Positions 1 through 61,758 of a stretch of DNA of 61,758 bases are shown in pieces. The notes beneath the pieces were generated by a model that saw only the letters and a program-made list of their open reading frames with translations, ran no database searches and was not told where the DNA came from. Positions within the stretch are counted from its first letter, which is position 1, and every line of letters begins with the position of its first letter. The translations under genes and the position numbers were made by a program. This DNA comes from a virus (lineage: Duplodnaviria; Caudoviricetes), in IMG/VR virus record IMGVR_UViG_3300033145_001155, positions 1 to 61,758 of that record; one strand, 5' to 3'.

Positions 1-101
1 GTCCTTCAATATAACTGTACTTACTCCATTTCCAAGGAGAGGGACTCACGGCACAGGAGGCAACCGATGCTGACAGGGCACATGTTCCGTCTTCCGGCAG
101 A
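1..101. repeat. Terminal direct repeat, left copy (circular contig overlap)
   Basis: Positions 1-101 are identical to 61658-61758, and a reading frame runs cleanly across the junction. Confidence 0.97.
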
Positions 102-1003
102 TGTATGCACCACAAGGCATCGCTCTCATTCCTAATCTTCGCCGTTACCTGTGTCCCGCAATCATCTGTTATTGTAATGTCAGCAACTGCTGAATAATCA
201 TTAGCATCACCTCATGTACCAGCCGCGCAGTCTAACTGCGCACATCGGCTATCGGTCGTGTGCTGGTTCGTGCCGCTGACGTTCCACGTATAGCCAGTAC
301 CGCTCACATTATAAGTAAACGGTGGGCACCCACCATTGACACACACCATAATATTACTGCCCGCCACAATGGTGTCTGGCGTATTATCATCGTCAAACTC
401 AAAGGTCGCTGCCGCTGGACAACAGGGGCACCACATAGTCACTTCTTCTTCACAAATAGAACCACCAGCGTCATAAAAGCGTACTACTAAATCAACCTTC
501 TCCTTGCCTGCGTCCAGATATGTATCCCACGTACCTGCAACCGGGTATATCTTAATAGGACTCACGCCCCCTTCTAATGATATACGAGCCATCGCGAGAA
601 GTACGCCGTCCTTAAATACTTTCCACCTGTCAACCGTTTCTGGTGGGGTGAGAGCCAACCACCCACAGCTAATAGGTCGATCGCAGTCCTTACCCACATA
701 GTTGGAAGAGCAGCTTATAGAACAACCTACAAATCCGCCACCCCAAGCAGGGTCCGTAGGTACAGGACCAGGAAATGAAGGAAAGGCCCAGGATGGCCAA
801 CCCATAAGACCTAACAATGGGTACGGCGGCGGCTGAAAGTGCTCCTGCTCAGCATAACTGTCTACCAAATACGGCTTGTCCATCTCGCTATAGGGCGCGG
901 CCACCTGGTCCTGCATAGCCTTACGCGGTACACGTCTCATACGTGTCACGTAATCGTCATCTTCATCTGCTAAATATGATTTGCGTCCGTATTCACGTGT
1001 CAT
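1..1003 (-). CDS. Cys-rich virion-module protein, N-terminal part; predicted selenoprotein (in-frame TGA at 214-212); continues across the origin to 61476, 394 aa total
   Basis: ORF 212..1003 ends ...LDCAAGT-TGA. The same frame stays open for 130 more codons (GDANDYSAVADITITDDCGTQ...WAALDWCG*), has no in-frame ATG, and ends in a TAATG overlap with the next gene. A SECIS-like hairpin follows the TGA. Confidence 0.8.
175..211 (-). promoter_or_regulatory. Bacterial SECIS-like hairpin after TGA 214-212
   Basis: mRNA UAAUG-AUUAU-UCAGC-AGUU-GCUGA-CAUUA; the loop starts after a 23-nt spacer from UGA, with G at loop position 2 followed by U. Confidence 0.7.
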
Positions 1004-6109: not shown

Positions 6110-6730
6110 TCATATGTCCTGTGCGTACACTTTATCCGCCTGAAAAAGTACCAGTGGTTCCTGTTTCGCCTTAATATCAACCCCTTTCACACGACCGCGC
6201 GGGGTCCGATCTATGGCAGATGCCATCTTGGTTACGTCCAACCCCTCACCCAATGGCCCTAAAAAGTTACATAGGCCCTGAGCAATAGAGCGCGGATAAT
6301 TCACCATCTCCCTATACTGTACATAGTGCGTCGGTATTTCATGTTGCCTTAGTATGCGTATTGCCCACGCCAGTATTTGATCGGGCGAGTCCCATATGGT
6401 GCGCATTGCCATCATGGAGGAAATGATTTCCGTCATGTCCCTCAACATGAAAATAACAAGTAAGGAGCGAGTGCCAACGGGTAAGTGCTCCATATAGGGT
6501 GCAACCAGTTTAACCGCCTTACCGGCGGACCAGGAGGGTGGGTTGCTGGTTAACTTCTCACCCACGTCCTTCACCTCATATATACCATAAGGTGAAAATT
6601 CGTTCATCGCCCCCTGGGTAACCGTGTCCACCAAAACAGGTAGACCGCCATAGTACAACATACGCATCATGGTGGTAGTACCAGTGCGGGGGAGGCCTGA
6701 AACGATAACGGTGGGCAACAGGTCGGCCAT
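6110..6730 (-). CDS. Sulfotransferase-family protein
   Basis: IVSGLPRTGTT PAPS-binding loop, IFMLRD..EIISS 3'-phosphate motif, and YREMV..P...LCNFLG motif. Confidence 0.8.
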   Translation of the reverse strand: MADLLPTVIVSGLPRTGTTTMMRMLYYGGLPVLVDTVTQGAMNEFSPYGIYEVKDVGEKLTSNPPSWSAGKAVKLVAPYMEHLPVGTRSLLVIFMLRDMTEIISSMMAMRTIWDSPDQILAWAIRILRQHEIPTHYVQYREMVNYPRSIAQGLCNFLGPLGEGLDVTKMASAIDRTPRGRVKGVDIKAKQEPLVLFQADKVYAQDI

Positions 6731-10986: not shown

Positions 10987-11148
10987 TTACCCCCCTTTGC
11001 GCGTTACGCGTTGTGTTGCAGACCGTATACCTTTACCCTTTGACGCTCTGTACCCTGCGTAGGCCCTCTCACAGAGGGCTTTACTCTTATACATTCAATC
11101 GCCTGACCCCAGGCGGTATTTACCATTACTTCACTTTAAACACGGCAT
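10987..11148 (-). CDS. 53-aa predicted selenoprotein with two UGA codons: MPCLKUSNGKYRLGSGDUMYKSKALCERAYAGYRASKGKGIRSATQRVTRKGG
   Basis: Hand-translated. Fills the portal-to-10980 gap (ATG 13 nt after the portal stop; its TAA overlaps the TAAGGA RBS of the next gene). TGA at 11133-11131 and 11097-11095, each followed by a SECIS-like hairpin; CxxU motif. Confidence 0.8.
11063..11079 (-). promoter_or_regulatory. SECIS-like hairpin for TGA 11097-11095
   Basis: GCCCUCU-GUG-AGAGGGC perfect 7-bp stem starting at +16 after UGA; GU at the loop start. Confidence 0.72.
11100..11115 (-). promoter_or_regulatory. SECIS-like hairpin for TGA 11133-11131
   Basis: CGCCUG-GGGU-CAGGCG perfect 6-bp stem starting at +16 after UGA; G-rich loop with GU. 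Confidence 0.72.
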
Positions 11149-47805: not shown

Positions 47806-50800
47806 TTAGCGTTTACCTCTACCCCTCATTCTACCATACGCGCCCCGTAGAGTCAAGCCCCGTCTTTGTTCACCCTCACGTCCGCGCTCACCCTTCCACG
47901 TTTCTGCCGTCCGGGCCGCGTGTTCCCGCAGTACTTTAGGCGTACCCGCGCCCGGCTCTCTTTCCCTGTACTCCACCGCCTTATCTATATCTATCATTTG
48001 ATGCGGTTTAGCTCGCATGTGCCACTCTGCCATTTCCCTGTTCACATCAACCATACCCTGTATGTCGCCCCTACGCTTAGCGTTAACGTATCGGTCAGCC
48101 CAGGCCCTCTTCTTAGCCCCCAAAGCTTCCTGCGTCTTACGTGTGGCTTTATATGCTTTATACAAGGAAGAAACGGACGTGGGTTGAAAACCGAACACAC
48201 CCTTACGTATCGCCTCAAAGAAGTTAATGCGATTAGGGCCAGGTTCTCCATAATAGTTAATGTCCATACCGGAACGCGAACGCTGCCCCGTTGTGTACAG
48301 CTCCAACCCACGCATAGCGTTGCGTACCGCAATAGGTGTTATAGGCGTTTCCGATAAGGCACGTGCGGTTGCCCCACTACGGAAGCTATCTCGCATATTT
48401 ATCGTGTCTTCATACACGCTGTAAGGTACACCAATAACTTCCTTCCAGTTACGCGGCACCTCAATACTCATTGAACCCGTCATATCTATACCGGTGCCGC
48501 CAAATAGGCCATATACCACTACATCCTTTAGCCAGTCATTCGGCATAGCCGCGCGTATGCGGGTCAGTAGGTCTTCATCATCGTCCTCAATGATGTAGGA
48601 TAGCAGTAGCGACAGAGAACCGAAAAATGGTGTAGACCGCAACCCACCCATAAGTATTAGGTTGCGCATTGCGCGCCCAAATGCCATCTTACCTTCCCAC
48701 CCCTGGTGTATCAACAAACTCCACATACAATGTAGGTAGTTGTGCGTAAAGGAACGGAACGTATAGCCCGCGCGCATATATTTCTGCAGGTCCCCTCCAC
48801 GGAACGCAGTGGGCATATTCGCCATTCCATATAGAAAATGTGTGTCGTATATAATGTCCTTAGCAAATTTTAGTGACGCACCGTAATCACCACGCGTATT
48901 GTTACCGTCCGGAGCTATTACGCCCTCGTTATAAGCCACACGGAAGGCGCATAGGCCGGTGCTGGTGCGGTTAAACTTTTCCGCTATGCGCATGAATATA
49001 CCACTCTTAGTAACAAACTTCTTTAGGTACTTGGTCCACCCTATACCAGGCATATTACCAGTTAGCTCACGAAGGAACAAGTCTGCAGTAGACCCGGCCT
49101 CATGCATATCCTTAATAGCACGCTGGTCTATAGCAGGCAAATGTTCATATATAACCTCCTTACCTGCCCAGGCTTTCTCTGCCGTTAACCCTTGGCGTAC
49201 ATCGTGCATGGCCTTGGTTAACTTCACGTGAGAGAACTTGGTATAAACGGACAGTACCGGTGCGGCAACTATGACGTTCTGCGTTAGGTTTAACACACCA
49301 GTCTTAATAACAAACCCAAGGTACTTGGCAAAAAATAGGCCGCGTAGAGTATCTACCACCCTATCCGTCTTGGTCTGGTTTGCCAGCATATCCGTTGTGT
49401 ACTTGTCTAAGTGCCTATACTCCTGTGGGTTCTTGGCCGCATTAATTTTATGTAACGTAGCCGAATGACGTTTGGCCCTCTCTATTTTCGTCTTGAAGCC
49501 AACATATCCGCTAAGGTAGTCGTACGTTATACCCCATATGTCATCCGTTTCATGTCCCGGTATATTCTTGCTTGCTATGGCGTGACGCGCCCAGCCAGGT
49601 GAACGCAATACTTCGGTAAAGGCGTGGGTTAAGGCGCGCTCCATACGGTTAGCCAGCATGGTCTGGGCCTTGGCCAGCGGTATACCTTTCTCCGCCGCAT
49701 ATGCCTTTGCGTCTTCCACAGTAACTTTAGCCCCAGCAGCGGCGGCAATTTGCTGCATGGCCTCCCTTGGTATCTGGAAAAAGACCTCGATGGGCAACTC
49801 CTTAACTTCGTCCTGTTGTAGGTCGTAGTCAGCAAAGGCACCAGGTAAATCCCCAGAGGTAATTTGGTCCGCCAACCAACGCTGGGCAGTCTGTTTGGCT
49901 TTACCCTTAACAGGGCGCAACATGTCCACTTTACTGTTGTAGTGCGTACGGTAGACTACATCGCCCTCTTTGTTGATTAGCTGCACATAGGCATCACCGG
50001 TACGGCGATGGGGGAAATAGTTGGGTGTACGGCCTATAAGCTCCATATACTTGTCTATTTCTTCCTTGTTGACCTTGTTGGACTTCATCATAGCACGTAT
50101 GTCAAGCAAGGTGTTGTCATATGTACGACGCAAAGTTAAAAAGGCGTCAACGGCAGGTTGTGTTGCCCCCTCCTTAAGCAGGAAGGCCTCTGTCTCTTTA
50201 TAGTGTTGCTCGCTTGGGCCAGTGGTGCCGTCAGCTAAACGGACGGACCAGCCGGTGGGTACGGCTTCCTTGGGAAAGGCAACGCGATCCCACTTCCAAA
50301 TTAAAGCGGCTACTTCCTTGTTAAGGCGTTTGTTGGACGACACAGCCTGTTGGGTATCAGCCAGGCCCAGCGGCCCATCATATAGGTCAAATAGTTCCTT
50401 GGCGCGGGCTTCCTGTGCCCATACTTCCGTCGCCTCCGCTTCACGCATGGAAGCAAAACGCTTGCTGAGCCAATGTGGCATACCGAAGGCGCGATGATAC
50501 CAGCGCATGTCAGTACGAGCGAACCCACGGCCAAAACGTTCCTGTGCCCAGGTAAACAGGGCGTTAGACTCCTTGGTAGAAGGCATGGCGTGCGGGTTAC
50601 GGGCGTAGCGTGACCATGCGGCGCGGTACTGCTGAGCGTCCGGGGTTTGAGTGTGAGCGGACATACCCCTGGCAAGGTCGAGCGCAAACTGGGTCTGTCC
50701 GTCGAAGAGGATTGCGTCACGCATGGTGGGGGTAATGGGCACAGACCAGACCTTCTCGTAAAACGTTTCTTTTTTAACAACAACTTTATACTCTCCCTGC

Positions 50801-53800
50801 GGTATATCCTGCGCACCCTCTTCATACACCCACAGTGTCCCCTCGCGTGCTTGTCGCACAGTGTCTTCTGCAGACTCCAGCGTAGAGGTGCGTTCTACTT
50901 CCCTACCCCAGCGGTCTACCACTGCATACTCACCCACAAATGTTGGTATCTGTACTTCCTCTATCCCCCCACCCCACTGCTTGACATACTTACCCGCGAA
51001 CGAGGGTAGCAGCTTGTCATAGAAGAACTTCATACCCTGTCCACCTACGGTCAGGTCCTCACCACTTACCACACCCTGTTGCTGACTACTTTCAGCAATA
51101 GACCGGGCAATGTCCTCACCGACCACACCGACCAAGGTGGTAGTATAGCCCTGTACCATGGTTTCACCCTTAAGGGGTATAACAGCGTCAAGGACCGGTA
51201 CGGCAGGCGCGACATCCTCAGCGCGGCTGTAGGCAAGAATACGTACCGCCGCTCCCTTTATAGCTGTCTCTGGTTCAGTCAGTCGGCCATATTCAGATAC
51301 CTCTTCTGCCGTCATTTCAGACTTAATAGTATCAACCCACGCGTCAAATGACATTACAAAATCCTCTGGGCTATCCCCCTTCAAGCGCTTACGTGCCACA
51401 CCTACCTCATCCGGTTTGTATTTCTCTACCATTTTCAACAAAAATTCGTCAGCAGACAGACCCGAATCTGTTACTGCCACCTTGCTCCACTTTATATGGT
51501 GCACCACTTGCCTTAGCGCCATCTTGTACCGCCCTACCTGGGTGACCCCTTTAGTCCATCCCAGACTTTCGAACCCGTACTCCGCTGCCCAGCGTAACAT
51601 GCGCTTAAATGCTACCTCAGGCCAAATACCAACGTCACGTATAATAACGGGTTTGCCCTCTTTGTCACGCTTGACACGTTCCTTGGTAGGACCAAACGGG
51701 GCAAGGGGAACTCCGGGAAAAAGCTGCCCAGACCCCTCCTCAGCCAAATTACCAAGCGTGTTTAGTTTCCTGTTCTCCTCTATCGTTACGACGTTCCACA
51801 AATCTGCCTTCTGTGTTAAATCGTATTTCCCAAGTAGCGTGGTAACATATTCGTTCAATTCCTTCCTGTGCGCCTTTGCTTTCTCCTCAATAGCCGCGTC
51901 CCTGAATCCCACTCGTTTGGCGTCCTGTAGCCAGTCTGACTGAATTTCCTCCACAAACAGCATGCGCTTGCCATCAGCACTAACCCGTTCGTTGAACCGC
52001 ATGTGCACCAGAACGTCTTCCGTTGAACCCCAATGCGCCGAGAAGTAGAGTTTGCCACCCTCTTTACGCGGGTAAACCAAAAGTAACTCGCGATACTTCT
52101 CACCCATGGGCAGTACCAATCGGCCATGGCGCGTAGGTGGAACGAAGGGCACAGTGGGTAACATTCCCGCCTCCATAGCTTGTGCCGCTTGTTGCGCCTC
52201 AGCCAATGTGTTATACCTCTCTCTCTCTACCCTTGCGGCACCTTCTTCTATAGTACTGGATAACACAAATGCACTGTCTATTTGTTCTATATCCCACATA
52301 AAGTTATCACTTATAGCACCCCACATAGGAAGGGCCGGAGTTTCCTGTCGCCACTCTAAGATGACTGGTTGCGCCAATACCCTCTGCCCACGCACCCTTT
52401 GCTCAGGGCTTAACACCGGCTCAGGGCTTAACACCGGGTCTAACCCCATACGCCCTAACACGTCCGCATATAGTGTGTCGTCGCTCCACAGAAGAGCAAT
52501 ATTCTCATCACGTATATCGTTTGCTGACTGCTCAGCCTCGGCCTCCGTCAGGTCATCCATGGTAGCCATTTCATTAGACAAGCCATCCATGACGTAGTAA
52601 CCACCCCCTTCCGCCATCTCGTCTCGATCTACCTTTGCCATAACCTGCCATAGGTCGCTGTTGCGCACGTCCTCCATATGGGTGCCAGTAGCGACATACA
52701 TTTCGGGGCGCTCGTCTATAGCACGCAACTTGGCTACCGTCTCGATACCATCCTCGTAGTAACGACCTGTTGCATGGTCAACATTTACTTCTTCCCCAGC
52801 TCTCCGGATGCGTTCTGCATGACTTTCTTCCAACGCTTCAACATCGTCAACAGTGTACTGTACAGGTGCGGGTAGGGCTTGGGCTGGCGCTTGCTGAACC
52901 GGAATCGTTCTATCCCACGGCAGCTCCATTACCGCGTCTATTCCCGCCCTATCCTCTGCAGCCCCTCTGGCTTCGTCAGCACTACCGTATACCGTGGTTC
53001 CACCTGTAGGTTCCGCATCACCTACTGTTTCGTACAAACGCCACCCACCATTATAACGTACTTCATATTGTGTTTGGCCTACACGTGTAGTGTGTATACC
53101 GAGTTGGGCAGGTACGGGTGCGATGGGTTGCCCCGCTTCAACGTCGTCCTCTGTATAAGTCTGTGGCGCACCTACCTGTGGCGCGATAACGCCAAGATCG
53201 ACTGCAAGATCAGTTAATTCATCCATTTCCAGTTCGTCTACATTAGCCATACTCTCTGTTGCAAGAACTGCGTCTTCTCGATTATCATACTCAAGTGTGT
53301 TGTCTGATCGTTCATCATACACTACCCACTGCTCTGCGTCATTACGACTAATAGTACCAATCAGCCGTAATTCCAGCGCTTCCGACACTTGTTCCCGCAA
53401 TTGCGGCATATCAAATGCAGGTGCAGGCAATGGTGTAAGTTGAGCAGATGTAGACATGCTAGGTGGTGGGCCATACTGTATTTCCTTTAATTCAACTTGG
53501 TTCGCCCTTATCCACTCCACAAACTCCTCTTTGTTTATTTTCCCGTCTTTACCTGTGTTCTCCTTCACCCACTGCTCGACCCCTAACCACTTTAGCTCAG
53601 CAGGTTTGACGTGTTTACCTAACCACTTTACCAAAGACTGTGGCTTACGCGGCATATCTGTCGCTTCCTCTACCACGTGCAACAGTTGGCTGTACGCCCA
53701 AGGCACAGGTTTACTTTCCGTTGCCAACTGCAGGCTTGGTTGCGCTAATGCCGCCGCGCCCAGGTCCTTACGTGGCGCAAACTTACCAGCGTACAGGTCG

Positions 53801-56800
53801 GCAAACAGGTCCTCAGGTCGGTTGTACCCCTTACTCCTTAACCAATTAGCCACGCGCTGTAATGTAGCGCGTATCTGCCCAAACAGCTTACGTACCCAAT
53901 TCGGCTGCAGCCTTGCTGTCTGTGCCCCGGCTACATAATCTGCGTAGGCCCACGCTGCAGCTTCCTTGTTCTTGTAGTGTTTCATCAGCCGCGTAATACG
54001 TTCCTGTGATATTAGCCATGGTAGCGCCAGCTCAAACGCTTCATGGCGCGCGGTGCGTCGCATAGTTGCTCTGTCTTGTATAGCGGCCAACTCCACCAAC
54101 GCCCGCCAGCGGTTTATGGTAGTAGCACCCAACGGTACTGCCTCCTCAATAGCTTCACGCGGCAGATCATAACTGGCCATGGCCGCCAGTTTATCGTGCT
54201 CCGTCATGTTAATCCAGTCGGTAATTTCCACTTCCACGTCGGCCATAAGCTCCGGGGGTAGCGTTTCGGCTAACACGTCACGCATTTCAACTAACAACGC
54301 GCCGTTAAATTCCGCCTGTGTTTGGGCCGTGGTAAAGGGTAGGCCACCTTCACGTGGCCCCAACCCCATCTGCTTATGCTTACTAAATGCCGCCGCAACC
54401 ATGCGCACTACTTCCTGTATGTCAACGTCCGGCGTATTAACATCCGGTAATCTGTATGCCGCTATGGCGTCGCCGTGAGGCACACTTACGTCAAGTATAA
54501 GGTTGTTACGCTTTTCCAGCTCTGGGGCTAATATGGCTTGTTGCTCAGGTGTAGGCACACCTATTACGTCTATCAGCACTTGATTAGGGGCAACACTTAT
54601 ACGCGCCGCACCGGTTTCACTAAGAAACTTGTATACCCCCTCATATGCACCTTCCTGTACGTCCATATTAAGGGCGATGGGTATGTCCACATGCACCTTG
54701 CTTGGCCTGTGCCGAGAGCTGTAAAAATCGATCATCGTGCCGTCGAGCATGATCAGACCGGCCTCTTCTATATTATCCGTAGTACCCCAGAGGTCCGCGA
54801 GCTGCGCGGCCCAGCGTTGGCCCTGCTCCGTCGGCTGCACGTACGTCTGTTCAGCCTCGGCCTGAAAAAATGATGCCGTGTACTGAGTTAACAAATCGCG
54901 CGTTTGAGTGCGTGCGGAAAGTAGCGGTGTACCGTCAAGCCGCAGACGTCGCATAATGCGCGCGCCGACCTTGGCCGGATGTAACCAGTCGCGGTATGTG
55001 TCGCGCCCTTGCTCAGTAAAAACGGTACGCAAGGTAGGGGTGACGTCCTCCCCCACCTGTACCGCATCTAACAAGTCACCCATGGTGATGTCAGGGGTAA
55101 GGAGTGTGTCAGAGGAAATGCCGCCTGCGGCTAAAGCAAACTGTTTGTGGGAAACAATTTGCACTTGGGTCGGGTCGAACACGGCGTAATTAAACTTGCC
55201 GGATACAGCATTCTTGCTCCCAAAGACCCCTACAGGGACCTTCATACCATCTATACCTATACGGGAGAGAAACTTAGAAGCCATATGTTCGCGTTCTGGG
55301 CCTGTAAACTTGTCCCCCATCGATGCGCTCAACGAATTATAAACATCTACGCCAACATGTTTGGCCTCTGGATTAGGGACCAAGTTAGATATCTTCAACT
55401 TTAGTAAAAGATTCTCCTTTTTAGCCTGTCCCTTAATCCTGTCTAATAGACTGTTCGGCACTGGTTTATCCCACTCCAGCCATGTCATATCTTTTGGGTC
55501 CTTACGCAATCTCACCTTGTATACGTTGCGAACAGGTTTTATTCCTATCTCAGAGGACGGAATGTCAAGCTCGAAAAGCATTAGCTGATCTGTCTTGCCA
55601 TCTTTCCTAAAGGATGCCAGCCTATCCGAACTCCACCAGGCAATATTATAATAATCCCTTTCCTTCTTCCGTTTTGTAATAGCATTTAATAACTTATCGG
55701 CTACAGCATTTCTCTCTCCGGGCGCAACTACTTTTGGTGTTCCACCGTACTCCGCATAAAATTTGCCAACACCTTCCTCCTCACTAATATACACACCCCA
55801 ACCAGCACCTAAACCTTGGCCTGTACCAATCATTTCGTCAGTAAAGTGGGTAAACGGTGCACCCGCCTTGGTTTGGCCGTGCCATAGTGCGAACTGCCTA
55901 CCCGGCTTTTGTATAGCGGTGCCTACCCAGCCCTCAGCTGCGCGCGCTGGCCTGTGCGTACCCATCTTACCTGCCGCTTTAATAGCGCGGCGCGCCCACG
56001 CTTCCGTCTTAAACGGTTTACCCGCCTTGTTTAGCACGTCTGGCAGACCTATACCCTCTGCCTTAAGACGGGCCAAATTTTCCGCTGCGGTTAGGGGTCC
56101 GCGTTTGGACGCACCCTCCGCACGTACACCCTTGGGTAAAAACGTTGGGCGTGGGCCAGGTGGTCTAACACCTAACTTTGCCGCCGTAGGTGGGCGTGTT
56201 GGCCCCTTCACTTGCCTGGCAGGTTCCGGCTTGAGCAGTTCGGGCATTGCCTGCTTGTATACCAGCGCATACTTTTGTATGGCGCGTTTAACTTCCAACC
56301 CACGCCTGCCCGTTCCGCCAACCAAACCCTCAAACTCCTTGGGTGTTAGTGGCGTAGGTACTTTACCCGCCTGTACTTGGGTTATGTATTCCTTAGCGCG
56401 CTTACCGCCTGCTACCCTCTGCTCTTCCGTAAATTTGGCCTGTTTGGCCTTGGTGAGCATAGCGGCACGTGCCTTACCTTTAGCAGCGGTATATGCAAAC
56501 GGGTCTACCACAAGAAAGAGGCCCTCACCGCGCTTGATGCGTATGGGCGGCACCTTACGTTCTTCTTCCCGCACCCGGCGCGCCTCAGCCAATGCACCAG
56601 GGCCTACAGGGCGTTTAGCACGAATGAGCTTACGCTTGAGCTTAACCTTACCTATGTCGGCCAACTTAGCGCGTGGGTCATAAGTTACCAACGCATCACG
56701 CGTCTTTGCGGCCATGTCTAACTTAAGCCCCGCTGCTTCTAACGCAGACTGTAGTAGTGCTGAGTCTTGCTGGCCTAAAGCACGCTCCTTTACTTGCTCA

Positions 56801-58965
56801 GGCTTTAGTGCCACCCACGATTGGGACCCGACATCCTCTACTTTATTAGTATACACTAGGCCGTCATATCCAGCCCTCCCCAGCGCATCTACCAGTATAT
56901 CACTAACCAACTTCCACGTTTTAGCATCTGATTTCTCCTTAGCGGCTATGGCCGACACCTCAGCTATTTCATTCTTAGTCAGCACATCGGCCTTACGTAG
57001 CTGTGCCGCTAACGATTCAGGGCTGGTATCTCCAAAATCAGTTACGCGTAGCGGATTCTTTATGTCTATACTGCTGGCAACTATCCTCCTGTCCCTTTCG
57101 GCCACAGCCCTACCACCCATAGCTGTGTCTAATCTGTCTTCCGCAGCTTTTCTGGTGCCAAAATGTGATAGGGGTTGGAAACTATCAAACTTGTCAGCGG
57201 TTCCGTGGTATAATACTTTAGGAGGAGTAGTAGTCGGCTCTTTGTCTAATACAGCCTCTATCCCTACCGGCGACAAATTACTACTATCCGTATACCTGCT
57301 CATCTCGGTTATAGACCTTTCCGCCGCAGCCTTAGTAGGATACGTTTCCCCGGTAATATGACCAAGCTTTACATTAGCGTCAGCATCAAGTATGTCCCAT
57401 CTACCTATTTTCTGCTCTGCGGCAGGCACGAATGGTTTAATTTCAGCCGCCTTGGCCTCCCATAGTTGGTCTACCATTGCCTCCCTTTGCTTTTCACTTG
57501 CCCTACGCCCAAACTGCTCAGCCTGTGCCTTATCCTTTAGGACGGGTACGGCGGCAGGTGCCTCGCGCGGAGGTTTTGGAGTGGGTTCCACCGCAGCCTC
57601 GGCTTCCACACCGGGTTTAGGTGGAACCTCCCCACGGGGGGCAGGAGGTGGACCCCCCTCTTCAACGCCCCGGCCAGGAGCACCTTTACCTTCACCTATG
57701 CCTTCGGTTCCCCATGCTACTGTCTGTACAGCACCGCCGCCTAATATTCCAGCACCTAACGCAGGCCAAAACGCCTGCTTAGCTGCTTCCCACGGGGGTG
57801 GAGCGGGCATACCTATATCACGTCTGAGCCAGGATTGTTCAGCCGCTGTAATCATTTCACCACTAGTCTCTACACCAGATACTAACGCCATACGTCCAAT
57901 AAACCTGGTTAGTGCGGCCATAATACCTTGCTTAACGGGTTTGGTAACTGCCTTACCACCTATTAGCTTCATTATGCGGCCTATGGCAACATCCTGTAGA
58001 AACTCCATACCACCTTCGGCTATACCGCTCATAATTGCATGGCCGCGCACTTCGTCCCAGTTAAGTTTGACGTTACCCGCCTCCGCTATTTCACGGGCCT
58101 CTTCCAGGAATTTGTCGTACTCCGCTAAACCAAATATAGCACCAGCACCTATAGCAAAGCCAAACGTACCAGCAACCTTGCCGCCAATAGGACCGGTAAT
58201 GGATGTTGCTATGCCAGCACTAAGTAATGCGCCAGGCGCGCCAGCAATTGCGGACTGAACCACAGCCTCAATACCGCCGTGTACCATTTCCCACCCAGGC
58301 CCCTCTTTACGTCTGGCATACTCCTTACCCGCCTCGGATATTTCATCTATTTGCTCACCTGTGTTATACCCAGCGACGCGCGCCACGCGGGCATACATTT
58401 CCGCCGCACCATAAAAACCTGCACTAAACGCTGCTTCAACCTCGCCTAATATGGTACGCTCTTCCAGCGAAATGTCCTCCCCAGCCTCAGGTGGGCGCGA
58501 GGGTCCTGGTTCACCACCTGCGAATATCGCCTGTAGAAATTCGTCACTTGGGTCAACCAGGCGCTTACCCGTGATGGTATCGACGCCGTTCCAGAAGCGG
58601 TTAGGGTGGTCCGGGGCCTTAAACGCGGAAGGCCAGTGCCAGCCGTCTTCACCCTTTTCTGGCTCTGCCCCTGCATGCCACGCCGCTCTATAGTCATATT
58701 TGTGGTCCGGGTGGTCCGGGTCTACATTTAGCCCCGTTTGCTTTGCCCAGCCACCATACCAATCCCTGAACCCAAACTCCTCACTTTCCTTCTCTACAAA
58801 GTTATGGCGTATGCGTATCTGCTCGGTAATGGGCAAGGCGGCATACTCCTCGTCACCAGCCACAACGTCGCGCAGAAAATAATTCTCCAGTATTTGTTCC
58901 CGCTCGACAATGGGCAGATCGAGAAACGCACTATCGTTACACCACTGTGCTACGGGTGATGTCAT
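47806..58965 (-). CDS. Giant (3,719 aa) polyvalent internal virion/ejection protein with two ART-PolyVal-like domains
   Basis: YHGT...GYDG...WVALKPEQVK (~57215-56790); WHG...GWGVY...GIDG...NYAVFD (~55885-55145); degenerate HEAFE zincin motif; YSQL...YRELLL...VEEIQSDW domain; helical C-terminus. Confidence 0.85.
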   Translation of the reverse strand: MTSPVAQWCNDSAFLDLPIVEREQILENYFLRDVVAGDEEYAALPITEQIRIRHNFVEKESEEFGFRDWYGGWAKQTGLNVDPDHPDHKYDYRAAWHAGAEPEKGEDGWHWPSAFKAPDHPNRFWNGVDTITGKRLVDPSDEFLQAIFAGGEPGPSRPPEAGEDISLEERTILGEVEAAFSAGFYGAAEMYARVARVAGYNTGEQIDEISEAGKEYARRKEGPGWEMVHGGIEAVVQSAIAGAPGALLSAGIATSITGPIGGKVAGTFGFAIGAGAIFGLAEYDKFLEEAREIAEAGNVKLNWDEVRGHAIMSGIAEGGMEFLQDVAIGRIMKLIGGKAVTKPVKQGIMAALTRFIGRMALVSGVETSGEMITAAEQSWLRRDIGMPAPPPWEAAKQAFWPALGAGILGGGAVQTVAWGTEGIGEGKGAPGRGVEEGGPPPAPRGEVPPKPGVEAEAAVEPTPKPPREAPAAVPVLKDKAQAEQFGRRASEKQREAMVDQLWEAKAAEIKPFVPAAEQKIGRWDILDADANVKLGHITGETYPTKAAAERSITEMSRYTDSSNLSPVGIEAVLDKEPTTTPPKVLYHGTADKFDSFQPLSHFGTRKAAEDRLDTAMGGRAVAERDRRIVASSIDIKNPLRVTDFGDTSPESLAAQLRKADVLTKNEIAEVSAIAAKEKSDAKTWKLVSDILVDALGRAGYDGLVYTNKVEDVGSQSWVALKPEQVKERALGQQDSALLQSALEAAGLKLDMAAKTRDALVTYDPRAKLADIGKVKLKRKLIRAKRPVGPGALAEARRVREEERKVPPIRIKRGEGLFLVVDPFAYTAAKGKARAAMLTKAKQAKFTEEQRVAGGKRAKEYITQVQAGKVPTPLTPKEFEGLVGGTGRRGLEVKRAIQKYALVYKQAMPELLKPEPARQVKGPTRPPTAAKLGVRPPGPRPTFLPKGVRAEGASKRGPLTAAENLARLKAEGIGLPDVLNKAGKPFKTEAWARRAIKAAGKMGTHRPARAAEGWVGTAIQKPGRQFALWHGQTKAGAPFTHFTDEMIGTGQGLGAGWGVYISEEEGVGKFYAEYGGTPKVVAPGERNAVADKLLNAITKRKKERDYYNIAWWSSDRLASFRKDGKTDQLMLFELDIPSSEIGIKPVRNVYKVRLRKDPKDMTWLEWDKPVPNSLLDRIKGQAKKENLLLKLKISNLVPNPEAKHVGVDVYNSLSASMGDKFTGPEREHMASKFLSRIGIDGMKVPVGVFGSKNAVSGKFNYAVFDPTQVQIVSHKQFALAAGGISSDTLLTPDITMGDLLDAVQVGEDVTPTLRTVFTEQGRDTYRDWLHPAKVGARIMRRLRLDGTPLLSARTQTRDLLTQYTASFFQAEAEQTYVQPTEQGQRWAAQLADLWGTTDNIEEAGLIMLDGTMIDFYSSRHRPSKVHVDIPIALNMDVQEGAYEGVYKFLSETGAARISVAPNQVLIDVIGVPTPEQQAILAPELEKRNNLILDVSVPHGDAIAAYRLPDVNTPDVDIQEVVRMVAAAFSKHKQMGLGPREGGLPFTTAQTQAEFNGALLVEMRDVLAETLPPELMADVEVEITDWINMTEHDKLAAMASYDLPREAIEEAVPLGATTINRWRALVELAAIQDRATMRRTARHEAFELALPWLISQERITRLMKHYKNKEAAAWAYADYVAGAQTARLQPNWVRKLFGQIRATLQRVANWLRSKGYNRPEDLFADLYAGKFAPRKDLGAAALAQPSLQLATESKPVPWAYSQLLHVVEEATDMPRKPQSLVKWLGKHVKPAELKWLGVEQWVKENTGKDGKINKEEFVEWIRANQVELKEIQYGPPPSMSTSAQLTPLPAPAFDMPQLREQVSEALELRLIGTISRNDAEQWVVYDERSDNTLEYDNREDAVLATESMANVDELEMDELTDLAVDLGVIAPQVGAPQTYTEDDVEAGQPIAPVPAQLGIHTTRVGQTQYEVRYNGGWRLYETVGDAEPTGGTTVYGSADEARGAAEDRAGIDAVMELPWDRTIPVQQAPAQALPAPVQYTVDDVEALEESHAERIRRAGEEVNVDHATGRYYEDGIETVAKLRAIDERPEMYVATGTHMEDVRNSDLWQVMAKVDRDEMAEGGGYYVMDGLSNEMATMDDLTEAEAEQSANDIRDENIALLWSDDTLYADVLGRMGLDPVLSPEPVLSPEQRVRGQRVLAQPVILEWRQETPALPMWGAISDNFMWDIEQIDSAFVLSSTIEEGAARVERERYNTLAEAQQAAQAMEAGMLPTVPFVPPTRHGRLVLPMGEKYRELLLVYPRKEGGKLYFSAHWGSTEDVLVHMRFNERVSADGKRMLFVEEIQSDWLQDAKRVGFRDAAIEEKAKAHRKELNEYVTTLLGKYDLTQKADLWNVVTIEENRKLNTLGNLAEEGSGQLFPGVPLAPFGPTKERVKRDKEGKPVIIRDVGIWPEVAFKRMLRWAAEYGFESLGWTKGVTQVGRYKMALRQVVHHIKWSKVAVTDSGLSADEFLLKMVEKYKPDEVGVARKRLKGDSPEDFVMSFDAWVDTIKSEMTAEEVSEYGRLTEPETAIKGAAVRILAYSRAEDVAPAVPVLDAVIPLKGETMVQGYTTTLVGVVGEDIARSIAESSQQQGVVSGEDLTVGGQGMKFFYDKLLPSFAGKYVKQWGGGIEEVQIPTFVGEYAVVDRWGREVERTSTLESAEDTVRQAREGTLWVYEEGAQDIPQGEYKVVVKKETFYEKVWSVPITPTMRDAILFDGQTQFALDLARGMSAHTQTPDAQQYRAAWSRYARNPHAMPSTKESNALFTWAQERFGRGFARTDMRWYHRAFGMPHWLSKRFASMREAEATEVWAQEARAKELFDLYDGPLGLADTQQAVSSNKRLNKEVAALIWKWDRVAFPKEAVPTGWSVRLADGTTGPSEQHYKETEAFLLKEGATQPAVDAFLTLRRTYDNTLLDIRAMMKSNKVNKEEIDKYMELIGRTPNYFPHRRTGDAYVQLINKEGDVVYRTHYNSKVDMLRPVKGKAKQTAQRWLADQITSGDLPGAFADYDLQQDEVKELPIEVFFQIPREAMQQIAAAAGAKVTVEDAKAYAAEKGIPLAKAQTMLANRMERALTHAFTEVLRSPGWARHAIASKNIPGHETDDIWGITYDYLSGYVGFKTKIERAKRHSATLHKINAAKNPQEYRHLDKYTTDMLANQTKTDRVVDTLRGLFFAKYLGFVIKTGVLNLTQNVIVAAPVLSVYTKFSHVKLTKAMHDVRQGLTAEKAWAGKEVIYEHLPAIDQRAIKDMHEAGSTADLFLRELTGNMPGIGWTKYLKKFVTKSGIFMRIAEKFNRTSTGLCAFRVAYNEGVIAPDGNNTRGDYGASLKFAKDIIYDTHFLYGMANMPTAFRGGDLQKYMRAGYTFRSFTHNYLHCMWSLLIHQGWEGKMAFGRAMRNLILMGGLRSTPFFGSLSLLLSYIIEDDDEDLLTRIRAAMPNDWLKDVVVYGLFGGTGIDMTGSMSIEVPRNWKEVIGVPYSVYEDTINMRDSFRSGATARALSETPITPIAVRNAMRGLELYTTGQRSRSGMDINYYGEPGPNRINFFEAIRKGVFGFQPTSVSSLYKAYKATRKTQEALGAKKRAWADRYVNAKRRGDIQGMVDVNREMAEWHMRAKPHQMIDIDKAVEYREREPGAGTPKVLREHAARTAETWKGERGREGEQRRGLTLRGAYGRMRGRGKR

Positions 58966-61476: not shown

Positions 61477-61657
61477 TAGCCACACCAGTCCAAGGCTGCC
61501 CAATCATCCCCATCACAATTACAACGCCAATAGGCAACTCGTAAAGTCTCTGCACAGTACCCGTCTTCTACTCTCCAAGGATCATTTTCTCCATCAATAC
61601 AATTAGCATAACAAGGATCATCGGGATAATACGTTGTGACCTGGACTTGTCTTTTTT
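61476..61657 (-). CDS. C-terminal end of the predicted 394-aa selenoprotein starting at 1003
   Basis: Same frame across the circular junction (...YIEG|QKRQVQ...WCG*); Cys/Trp-rich like the N-terminal part. Confidence 0.75.
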
Positions 61658-61758
61658 GTCCTTCAATATAACTGTACTTACTCCATTTCCAAGGAGAGGG
61701 ACTCACGGCACAGGAGGCAACCGATGCTGACAGGGCACATGTTCCGTCTTCCGGCAGA
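61658..61758. repeat. Terminal direct repeat, right copy
   Basis: Identical to 1-101. Confidence 0.97.

What the first reader, a model, noticed from the sequence alone, without database searches (positions are those of the whole stretch)
1..1003. Second UGA read-through gene: 394-aa Cys-rich tail-module protein spanning the contig junction
Seen: ORF 1003->212 stops at TGA in ...AQLDCAAGT*. The frame continues for 130 sense codons across the circular junction to TAA at 61478-61476, which overlaps the next ATG (TAATG coupling). The extension has no in-frame ATG and is Cys/Trp-rich like the first part. A hairpin UCAGC-AGUU-GCUGA with lower stem UAAUG/CAUUA follows the TGA, with the loop after a 23-nt spacer. 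Inference: TGA 214-212 is Sec (CxxxxU), and Sec availability could switch between 263-aa and 394-aa isoforms of a virion protein.
Basis: partly seen in the sequence, partly recalled or inferred. Interest (0 to 1): 0.88.

Follow-up and report, generated by a model that had tools for sequence, protein, structure and literature searches.

The report
Phage tail-module gene encoding selenocysteine
An uncultured phage has an internal UGA "stop" exactly where related phages keep a conserved cysteine in a particle protein, followed by the kind of RNA hairpin bacteria use to insert selenocysteine, so it most likely builds selenium into its virion.

Summary
ORF 1003->215 (263 codons) meets TGA 214-212. 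The frame then stays open for 130 codons across the 101-nt terminal repeat to TAA 61478-61476.

Four standard signs point to selenocysteine (Sec):
- TGA is kept at this codon in 14 of 21 distinct loci. The other 7 have Cys, and none has another residue or stop.
- Of the 150 best cluster representatives, 119 have Cys there, 1 has Gly and 26 end exactly there.
- The extension is coding: pN is below pS in 55 of 55 pairs. Models place it inside an Ig-like domain that spans the UGA.
- A 5-bp hairpin with a [A/G]GU-type loop lies 17 or 23 nt after the UGA and covaries. It forms 58/60 pairs in TGA loci against 19/35 in Cys loci.

No selB or tRNA-Sec lies in the phage, and the host is unknown.

CxxxxU is not a family-wide motif.

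A second small gene (11148->10989) has UGA at both invariant Cys of its family.

This scan's notes report similar signatures in other phage genomes, but not this family. I found no paper on it.

The parts
215..1003 (-). First 263 codons of the gene: a poorly modelled N-terminal part, a first beta-sandwich (about residues 95-195) and the first strands of a second, Ig-like beta-sandwich
   Evidence: ORF list; homologues; model; Foldseek matches to tandem Ig/FN3/cadherin-like domains, E about 2e-6
212..214 (-). In-frame TGA, read here as a selenocysteine codon (residue 264)
   Evidence: TGA in 14 of 21 distinct loci and TGT/TGC in the other 7. Among the 150 best cluster representatives: Cys in 119, Gly in 1, and 26 end here
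180..193 (-). SECIS-like hairpin: stem UCAGC (193-189), loop AGUU (188-185), stem GCUGA (184-180). The loop starts 23 nt after the UGA
   Evidence: Covariation over 13 TGA sequences: 96.9% of 65 cells paired, 3 of 5 pairs changed on both sides, 0 of 500 shuffles as high. 58/60 pairs in TGA loci against 19/35 in Cys loci
1..211 (-). First 70 codons (plus one base) of the 130-codon extension. They hold the last strands of the Ig-like domain (ADITIT, TQVTAKIRN) and the start of a variable Cys-rich C-terminal domain
   Evidence: One BLASTP alignment with the Cys form P0058 runs over residues 1-292 across the site, E 6e-43
61479..61657 (-). Rest of the extension: a hypervariable Cys/Trp-rich C-terminal domain ending ...LDWCG. 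Bases 61658-61758 repeat bases 1-101
   Evidence: pN below pS in 55 of 55 pairs of extensions. No pairwise similarity of the last 93 aa to P0058
61476..61478 (-). TAA that ends the 394-residue reading frame. It overlaps the ATG (61476-61474) of the next gene
   Evidence: The same arrangement, stop followed by ...CLKQWNNL... in frame, is seen in L003, L005, L006 and L007
10989..11148 (-). A second probable selenoprotein gene of the same phage: a 53-codon ORF after the portal gene, with UGAs at 11133-11131 and 11097-11095
   Evidence: Both UGAs fall on the two Cys columns that are invariant in all 31 homologues. A hairpin follows each UGA and none follows the Cys codons of L030

Best explanation
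TGA 214-212 is a selenocysteine codon. The gene encodes one 394-residue virion-module protein, not a 263-residue one.

Inferred mechanism: a small in-frame hairpin 18 nt downstream, with the loop starting at +23, acts as a bacterial-type SECIS. It would recruit the host's SelB with Sec-tRNA(Sec) to the ribosome paused at the UGA. The phage brings no such machinery of its own.

Selenocysteine replaces one of about twelve nearly invariant cysteines. It sits in a loop of an Ig-like beta-sandwich that continues for two or three more strands after the UGA. A hypervariable Cys-rich C-terminal domain follows.

Shown: the conserved UGA, Cys in homologues, a coding extension, a covarying hairpin specific to UGA forms, and a domain that spans the site.

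Inferred: SelB dependence, actual selenium incorporation, and the role of the residue. That role could be a selenylsulfide or diselenide-type cross-link, or a metal ligand, in a surface or tail protein made in few copies.
For: 1. Conservation of the codon. Of 25 related loci (8 viral, 17 metagenomic), 16 have TGA and 9 have TGT/TGC at the aligned codon. With the window this makes 21 distinct sequences: 14 TGA, 7 Cys, no other residue and no TAA/TAG.

2. Protein databases. Of 17 homologues, 15 end exactly at ...G[T/D] and 2 read on with Cys. Of the 150 best of 1031 cluster representatives, 119 have Cys, 1 has Gly, 26 end at the site and 4 alignments stop earlier.

3. The extension is coding. 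It is 124-145 codons long and open in all 11 sequences where it is complete. pN is below pS in 55 of 55 pairs, and dN/dS is 0.18-0.62 where dS is not saturated. A single alignment with the Cys form P0058 crosses the site.

4. The hairpin. Over 13 TGA sequences, 96.9% of 65 cells are paired, against 32-68% for slid partners. Twelve cells changed on both sides, and 0 of 500 shuffles reach the paired share, those cells or the covariation score. The pair made by the third bases of two codons takes the forms GC, CG, AU and UA, so the constraint is on the RNA. The loop is [A/G]G[U/C]N, with GU in 11 of 12, and starts 17 or 23 nt after the UGA.

5. Specificity. My strict rule is met by 9 of 12 TGA loci. 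It is met by 0 of 7 Cys loci, 0 of 2 terminal TGA stops of homologues, and 0 of 6 ordinary TGA stops of the window.

6. The domain spans the site.

7. TGA is otherwise a stop. Five other genes of 26 examined end in TGA, and long ORFs have no internal TGA.

8. A second gene of the same phage has UGA at both invariant Cys of its family.
Against: - No direct evidence of selenium or of the full-length protein exists.
- The host is unknown, so its Sec machinery could not be checked. Neither selB nor tRNA-Sec is in the phage or in four related virus records. I did not search for selA or selD.
- The hairpin is short. In the window alone it is not better than shuffles (z = -0.98).
- Two of the five measures are not exceptional: pairs with a change on both sides is reached by 82 of 500 shuffles, and further pair types by 54 of 500.
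- The sequences are related, so shuffle counts overstate significance.
- The spacing comes in two classes, 17 and 23 nt.
- L026 has loop GGCU, without GU.
- One Cys locus (L008) also forms 5 of 5 pairs, though with loop UAAU.
- Rfam gave nothing.
Confidence: 0.85

Rival explanations
1. Programmed stop-codon read-through without selenocysteine. The hairpin slows or perturbs termination and a near-cognate tRNA (Trp, Cys or Arg) reads the UGA. This would give a major 263-residue and a minor 394-residue isoform, as in the A1 protein of phage Qbeta.
For: A UGA followed by a structured element and a long open extension fits read-through as well. No Sec machinery is seen in the phage.
Against: The aligned residue is Cys in 119 of 120 full-length representatives. 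Trp, which I recall as the usual UGA read-through residue in bacteria, would therefore destroy a conserved position. The short product would end inside a beta-sandwich. The loop keeps G and U at fixed places, as SelB-binding loops do (recalled from E. coli fdhF), which simple read-through would not require.
Confidence: 0.07
2. The TGA is a true stop. The 130 codons are a separate gene, or are made by re-initiation, so two polypeptides result.
For: Gene callers end the protein here in 15 of 17 database homologues. In-frame TTG and GTG codons exist at extension codons 33, 55 and 126.
Against: There is no ATG in the extension. The best-conserved part of the extension, its first 30 or so residues, lies before any candidate start. 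Seven distinct loci and 119 representatives encode both parts as one protein with Cys at the joint. The models show one domain across the site.
Confidence: 0.03
3. The phage or its host reads every TGA as an amino acid (genetic code 4 or 25, or a suppressor tRNA).
For: Stop-codon reassignment is known in some phages (recalled, not from a call).
Against: Five other genes of 26 examined end in TGA, several in ATGA-type overlaps with the next gene. The 3719-codon ORF and other long ORFs hold no internal TGA. ARAGORN finds no tRNA. Codes 4 and 25 would give Trp or Gly where the family has Cys.
Confidence: 0.01
4. A recent nonsense mutation, pseudogene, sequencing error or mis-joined contig end.
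For: TGA is one base away from TGT or TGC. The ORF crosses the contig junction.
Against: TGA is kept in 13 other distinct loci at 35-57% protein identity, each with an open, selected extension. Relatives carry the same gene unbroken inside linear contigs, followed by the same next gene. No sequencing run could be listed for a read-level check.
Confidence: 0.01

Closest known systems
Bacterial selenoprotein genes with an in-ORF SECIS read by SelB (prototype E. coli fdhF; the bSECIS consensus is recalled from Zhang and Gladyshev, not from a call)
   Same: An in-frame UGA, Cys in homologues, and a stem-loop inside the coding sequence shortly after the UGA. There is G/U in the apical loop (GGUC in L005 and L007). 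The loop starts 17-23 nt after the UGA, within the recalled 16-37 nt range.
   Different: The gene belongs to a virus of bacteria and sits in its particle-building block. The protein is a non-enzymatic Ig-like, Cys-rich structural protein, not an oxidoreductase. The stem is short at 5-6 bp. SelB binding and selenium content are untested.
Poxvirus glutathione peroxidase selenoproteins (molluscum contagiosum virus, fowlpox virus)
   Same: Viral genes that depend on the host's Sec machinery. In fowlpox the SECIS lies in the coding region (PMC8310308, passages read).
   Different: Those are captured cellular enzymes of eukaryotic viruses, with eukaryotic SECIS elements. Here the gene is a phage structural protein with a bacterial-type element.
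UGA read-through in phage Qbeta (A1 protein; recalled)
   Same: A phage virion protein made by reading through a UGA.
   Different: In Qbeta both products are functional and the inserted residue does not matter. Here the site is a conserved Cys inside a domain, and a covarying hairpin is tied to the UGA.
SU10 / Kuravirus-type podophage tail (adaptor gp11, nozzle gp17, tail needle gp18; PMC9509320, passages read)
   Same: The capsid protein is SU10_MCP-like. The adaptor matches SU10_adaptor weakly, at 25.4 bits against a cut-off of 27. The gene lies two genes after the adaptor, directly after an 890-aa gene.
   Different: No sequence match links the 890-aa protein or this protein to SU10 tail proteins. 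The SU10 needle is described as a coiled coil plus beta-prism, whereas this protein is modelled as tandem beta-sandwiches. Its place in the virion is therefore inferred from gene order only.
Ig-like / FN3-like domains on phage surface proteins (Hoc-type outer capsid proteins, tip attachment protein J; BFVD matches)
   Same: The fold of residues about 200-295.
   Different: The matches are weak and generic (E 1e-4 to 1e-3, TM 0.1-0.6). No Pfam or PHROG family matches. None of those proteins is known to me to contain Sec.

Membership tests
Bacterial-type selenoprotein gene (UGA plus in-ORF SECIS) | In-frame UGA with a conserved, selected coding region downstream | tested here: met
   130 open codons. 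Extensions of 124-145 codons in 11 complete sequences. pN below pS in 55 of 55 pairs.
Bacterial-type selenoprotein gene (UGA plus in-ORF SECIS) | Homologues with Cys aligned to the UGA | tested here: met
   7 of 21 distinct loci have TGT/TGC. 119 of 120 full-length representatives have Cys.
Bacterial-type selenoprotein gene (UGA plus in-ORF SECIS) | Stem-loop shortly after the UGA with G in the apical loop (recalled consensus: loop 16-37 nt after the UGA), conserved as a structure | tested here: met
   96.9% of cells paired, 3 of 5 pairs with compensatory changes, and 0 of 500 shuffles as high on three of five measures. Loop at +17 or +23. 19/35 pairs in Cys loci, only L008 fully paired (UAAU loop, no G/GU); 0 of 7 meet my strict rule.
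Bacterial-type selenoprotein gene (UGA plus in-ORF SECIS) | selA, selB, selC (tRNA-Sec) and selD available in the cell | not testable with these tools
   The host is unknown. There is no selB, no tRNA-Sec and no tRNA at all in the phage. selA and selD were not searched. No relative was found in 185,579 species genomes.
Bacterial-type selenoprotein gene (UGA plus in-ORF SECIS) | Selenium in the protein | not testable with these tools
   Needs 75Se labelling or mass spectrometry.
Reassigned stop codon (code 4 or 25) | TGA used as a sense codon throughout the genes and not as a stop | tested here: not met
   Five other genes of 26 examined end in TGA. There is no internal TGA in the long ORFs.
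Programmed read-through giving two functional isoforms | The short product is a complete, foldable protein, and the residue inserted at the stop is unimportant | tested here: not met
   The stop lies inside a beta-sandwich in two models. The aligned column is Cys in 119 of 120.
SU10-type tail needle (gp18) | Trimeric coiled coil with a C-terminal beta-prism, encoded after the nozzle gene | tested here: inconclusive
   Only the gene position is comparable. The monomer models show beta-sandwiches and no long helix. No trimer was modelled.

The most novel reading that the evidence does not exclude
Tailed phages build selenocysteine into their particles as a structural residue. In this phage, three UGAs in two virion-module genes replace invariant cysteines. 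One small protein carries Sec at both partners of a Cys pair, which could form a diselenide. The tail-module protein carries Sec at one of twelve conserved Cys.

Such selenylsulfide or diselenide links, or Sec metal ligands, would hold under reducing conditions in which disulfides open. Infectivity would then depend on the host's Sec machinery and on selenium supply.

The scattered Sec forms on the family tree (at least 5 switches) would reflect repeated adaptation to hosts or habitats.
Probability: 0.35. Interest if true: 0.9.

Novelty: new variant of a known kind. Interest (0 to 1): 0.8.

Why it matters
Selenocysteine is known as a catalytic residue of a few cellular redox enzymes. Among viruses it is known only from captured glutathione peroxidases of poxviruses (PMC8310308, passages read).

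A phage structural protein family in which Sec and Cys forms replace each other repeatedly would have four consequences:
- It would be a non-enzymatic, probably structural use of Sec.
- It would show that phages exploit host recoding machinery for late genes.
- It would mean that gene callers truncate such proteins. Here 26 of the 150 best cluster representatives end at the site.
- It would predict that selenium supply and the host's sel genes can limit phage infectivity, which can be tested directly.

The natural Cys/Sec pairs, such as P0013 and P0016, are ready-made controls.

Tried and rejected
- Phage records: DNA similarity of the first 4 kb found no match. tblastn of the 263-aa part found no match. 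The capsid protein matches only Arthrobacter and Microbacterium phages at 24% identity, too distant to suggest a host.
- Host through a provirus: the record holding L004 is classed as a provirus, but all 10 ORFs I scanned are phage-type or unknown (methylases, ERF, helicase, HNH, M23, DUF1353). No host flank was found.
- Species genomes: no relative was found.
- Rfam: nothing at gathering scores. Only two chance-level hits at E 5 and 8.5 near the site.
- TGA 6112-6110, which I first took for another candidate, is an ordinary stop. The next gene starts at ATG 6092 after AGGGGG, and the in-frame continuation is 22 codons followed by another TGA.
- Sequencing runs: none was listed and no RNA holder was listed, so there was no read-level check and read laying was not used.
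- Small ORF: no match in four related virus records.
- The CxxxxU association: raw Fisher p = 1.7e-5, but only 5 independent pairs on supported branches, so there is no result.
- Function: Foldseek gave only generic Ig/FN3 matches. The PDB sequence search of the 890-aa neighbour found nothing. The second model's C-terminal domain is partly low-confidence (residues 403-445).
- Supplementary files of papers were not opened. The supplements of PMC9402790 might list viral selenoprotein hits that I could not see.

Full report
What is there. The window is a complete virus record of 61758 nt whose first and last 101 nt are identical, giving a circular length of 61657 nt at 51% G+C. On the minus strand, ORF 1003->215 (263 codons) ends at TGA 214-212. 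Read across the junction, the same frame continues for 130 sense codons to TAA 61478-61476, which overlaps the ATG of the next gene. The extension has no Met, 10 Cys and 7 Trp. Only 27 of 1568 TGA trinucleotides in the genome are followed by so long an open run.

Setting. Going down the minus strand, the gene order is:
- large terminase (PHROG E 1e-27);
- portal (E 3e-6);
- a 53-codon ORF;
- major head protein (E 1e-23; SU10_MCP-like in the Atlas);
- an adaptor-like gene (SU10_adaptor, 25.4 bits, just under the cut-off of 27);
- an 890-aa gene;
- this gene;
- three small genes;
- a 3719-codon ORF.
The phage is a distant SU10-like podophage. The gene stands where SU10 has distal tail genes (PMC9509320, passages read), but no sequence match supports a specific tail role.

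Homologues at the UGA. A word-indexed search gave 17 homologues besides the window's own protein. Fifteen end exactly at ...G[T/D], the residue before the UGA. Two (P0005, P0013) read on with Cys at that place and with clear similarity afterwards.

This gave 8 viral and 17 metagenomic loci, and none in species genomes. Sixteen loci have TGA and nine have TGT or TGC at the aligned codon. After collapsing copies, and counting the window, the tally is 14 TGA and 7 Cys of 21 distinct sequences, with no other residue and no other stop.

In the 10 loci (besides the window) where the contig reaches the end, the frame after the TGA stays open for 124-145 codons. It ends in a shared ...W-x-C terminus overlapping the next gene.

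A full HMM search found 1031 cluster representatives at E <= 1e-3, of which 195 score <= 1e-30. Of the best 150:
- 119 have Cys in the column;
- 1 has Gly;
- 26 end exactly there;
- 4 alignments stop earlier.
The Cys form P0058 aligns with the window's product in one piece over residues 1-292, E 6e-43.

The extension is coding and part of the same domain. Non-synonymous differences are fewer than synonymous ones in 55 of 55 pairs of extensions. Synonymous sites are mostly saturated; where dS is computable, dN/dS is 0.18-0.62.

Two AlphaFold models agree on the domain:
- Window product, first 334 residues (mean pLDDT 64.7): two beta-sandwiches. The second has strand 254-259 before residue 264 and strands 274-279 and 285-293 after it.
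- Full-length relative from L006, with a 112-row alignment: this domain has pLDDT 94-98 over residues 261-360, including the block that holds the site (residue 323). Three strands follow the site.
Foldseek finds only generic tandem Ig, FN3 or cadherin-like folds. A product ending at the UGA would thus be a cut domain, which argues against a useful 263-residue isoform.

The hairpin. In every TGA locus, five codons (X1-X2-Val-Ala-X5) form a 5-bp stem with a 4-nt loop, [A/G]G[U/C]N. The loop starts 17 or 23 nt after the UGA.

On an alignment of 13 TGA sequences:
- 96.9% of 65 cells pair, against 32-68% when the 3' partners are slid.
- 3 of 5 pairs show changes on both sides (12 cells).
- 0 of 500 shuffles reach the observed paired share, the number of such cells or the covariation score.
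- The two coarser measures are unexceptional, at 82 and 54 of 500.
RNAalifold predicts the same stem plus one more pair.

One covarying pair joins the third bases of codon X1 and of the Ala codon (GC, CG, AU, UA). Protein selection cannot explain that. In register, TGA loci form 58 of 60 pairs and Cys loci 19 of 35. The one Cys locus with 5 of 5 pairs has loop UAAU.

A strict ad hoc rule is met by 9 of 12 TGA loci. It is met by 0 of 7 Cys loci, 0 of 2 terminal TGA stops of homologues, 0 of 6 ordinary TGA stops of the window, and 23 of 1568 of all TGAs.

In the window alone the hairpin is not better than shuffles.

GGUC, the loop in L005 and L007, is also the apical loop I recall for the E. coli fdhF SECIS. 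That comparison is from memory, not from a call.

Not a reassigned codon. Five other genes of 26 examined end in TGA, and long ORFs lack internal TGA. There is no tRNA in the phage. No selB or tRNA-Sec is found in it or in four related records. selA and selD were not searched. The phage must rely on a host whose identity I could not establish.

Evolution. I built a FastTree tree of 151 representatives from columns upstream of the site only. On it the Sec label needs 19 changes, against a shuffled mean of 24.3, with 0 of 500 shuffles as low. Well-supported branches alone force at least 5 changes. Examples are P0016 (ends at the site) beside P0013 (Cys), and P0043 beside P0028. Sec and Cys forms have therefore replaced each other repeatedly.

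In the 119 Cys forms the conserved cysteines are at window positions 94, 107, 184, 192, 195, 264 and 282, present in 102-119 of 119. It is commoner in Sec forms, at 22 of 26 against 45 of 120, but the tree-controlled test has no power.

A second gene. Its 31 homologues (one viral locus and 30 database proteins) all have Cys at both positions, and these are the only invariant Cys of the family. A hairpin follows each UGA at the same distance (-10.7 and -14.2 kcal/mol). None follows the Cys codons of the homologue. All three in-frame UGAs of this phage thus fall on invariant Cys columns.

Literature and earlier notes. Five text searches returned no paper describing a natural selenoprotein gene of a bacteriophage:
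- A 2021 review of viral recoding names only the poxvirus peroxidases (PMC8310308, passages read).
- A marine survey says its selenoprotein families have few or no viral sequences (PMC9402790, passages read).
Subscription journals and supplements were not searched.

Notes of this scan describe the same signature in other phage genomes: 88 notes in at least 69 genomes hold the search words. They are unchecked by me and are not independent evidence. This protein family was not among them.

Verdict. The UGA is most likely a selenocysteine codon (0.85) in a 394-residue virion-module protein. The role of the residue, and the protein's place in the particle, remain inferences.

Noticed in passing
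window 10989-11148 (-): A 53-codon ORF after the portal gene has UGA at codons 6 and 18. Both fall on the only two invariant Cys of a family of 31 small phage proteins (MPV.KC.NGKYRIGSGKCMY...). A hairpin follows each UGA. The window's copy also has extra Cys at positions 3 and 26, where the family has Val and Ala.
   Followed up: partly
window 1-101 and 61658-61758: An exact 101-nt terminal repeat. The gene under study crosses it, and relatives carry the gene unbroken inside linear contigs.
   Followed up: yes
window 61479-61757 (-) and the matching parts of L003-L026: The last 90 or so residues of the protein are hypervariable between relatives, with no pairwise similarity to P0058. They keep several Cys and a terminal W-x-C. 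This pattern would suit a receptor-binding or otherwise fast-evolving tip.
   Followed up: partly
L025 626-628; L026 1298-1300; L020 1424-1426: In these homologues the full-length frame itself ends in TGA, and no SECIS-like hairpin follows where that could be checked (L025, L020). In L025 and L026 the same mRNA would therefore use UGA once as Sec and once as stop.
   Followed up: partly
L021 805-900: This homologue starts with a basic, then hydrophobic, signal-peptide-like N-terminus (MPKGKIFKTSLLMLILIFCMHLVKPGHAQ...), unlike the others.
   Followed up: no
L005 2638-3951; L014 564-2255; P0019: Some family members carry two copies of the Ig-like FDD.NTPDTI...SGTGYTW module. In L005 only the second copy has the UGA.
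   Followed up: no
window 47806-58965 (-): A 3719-codon ORF without any internal TGA lies at the end of the virion module. I did not examine it further.
   Followed up: no
window 6110-6112 (-): The TGA ending the 206-aa gene has a 22-codon in-frame continuation, but it is an ordinary stop. The next gene starts at ATG 6092 behind AGGGGG.
   Followed up: yes
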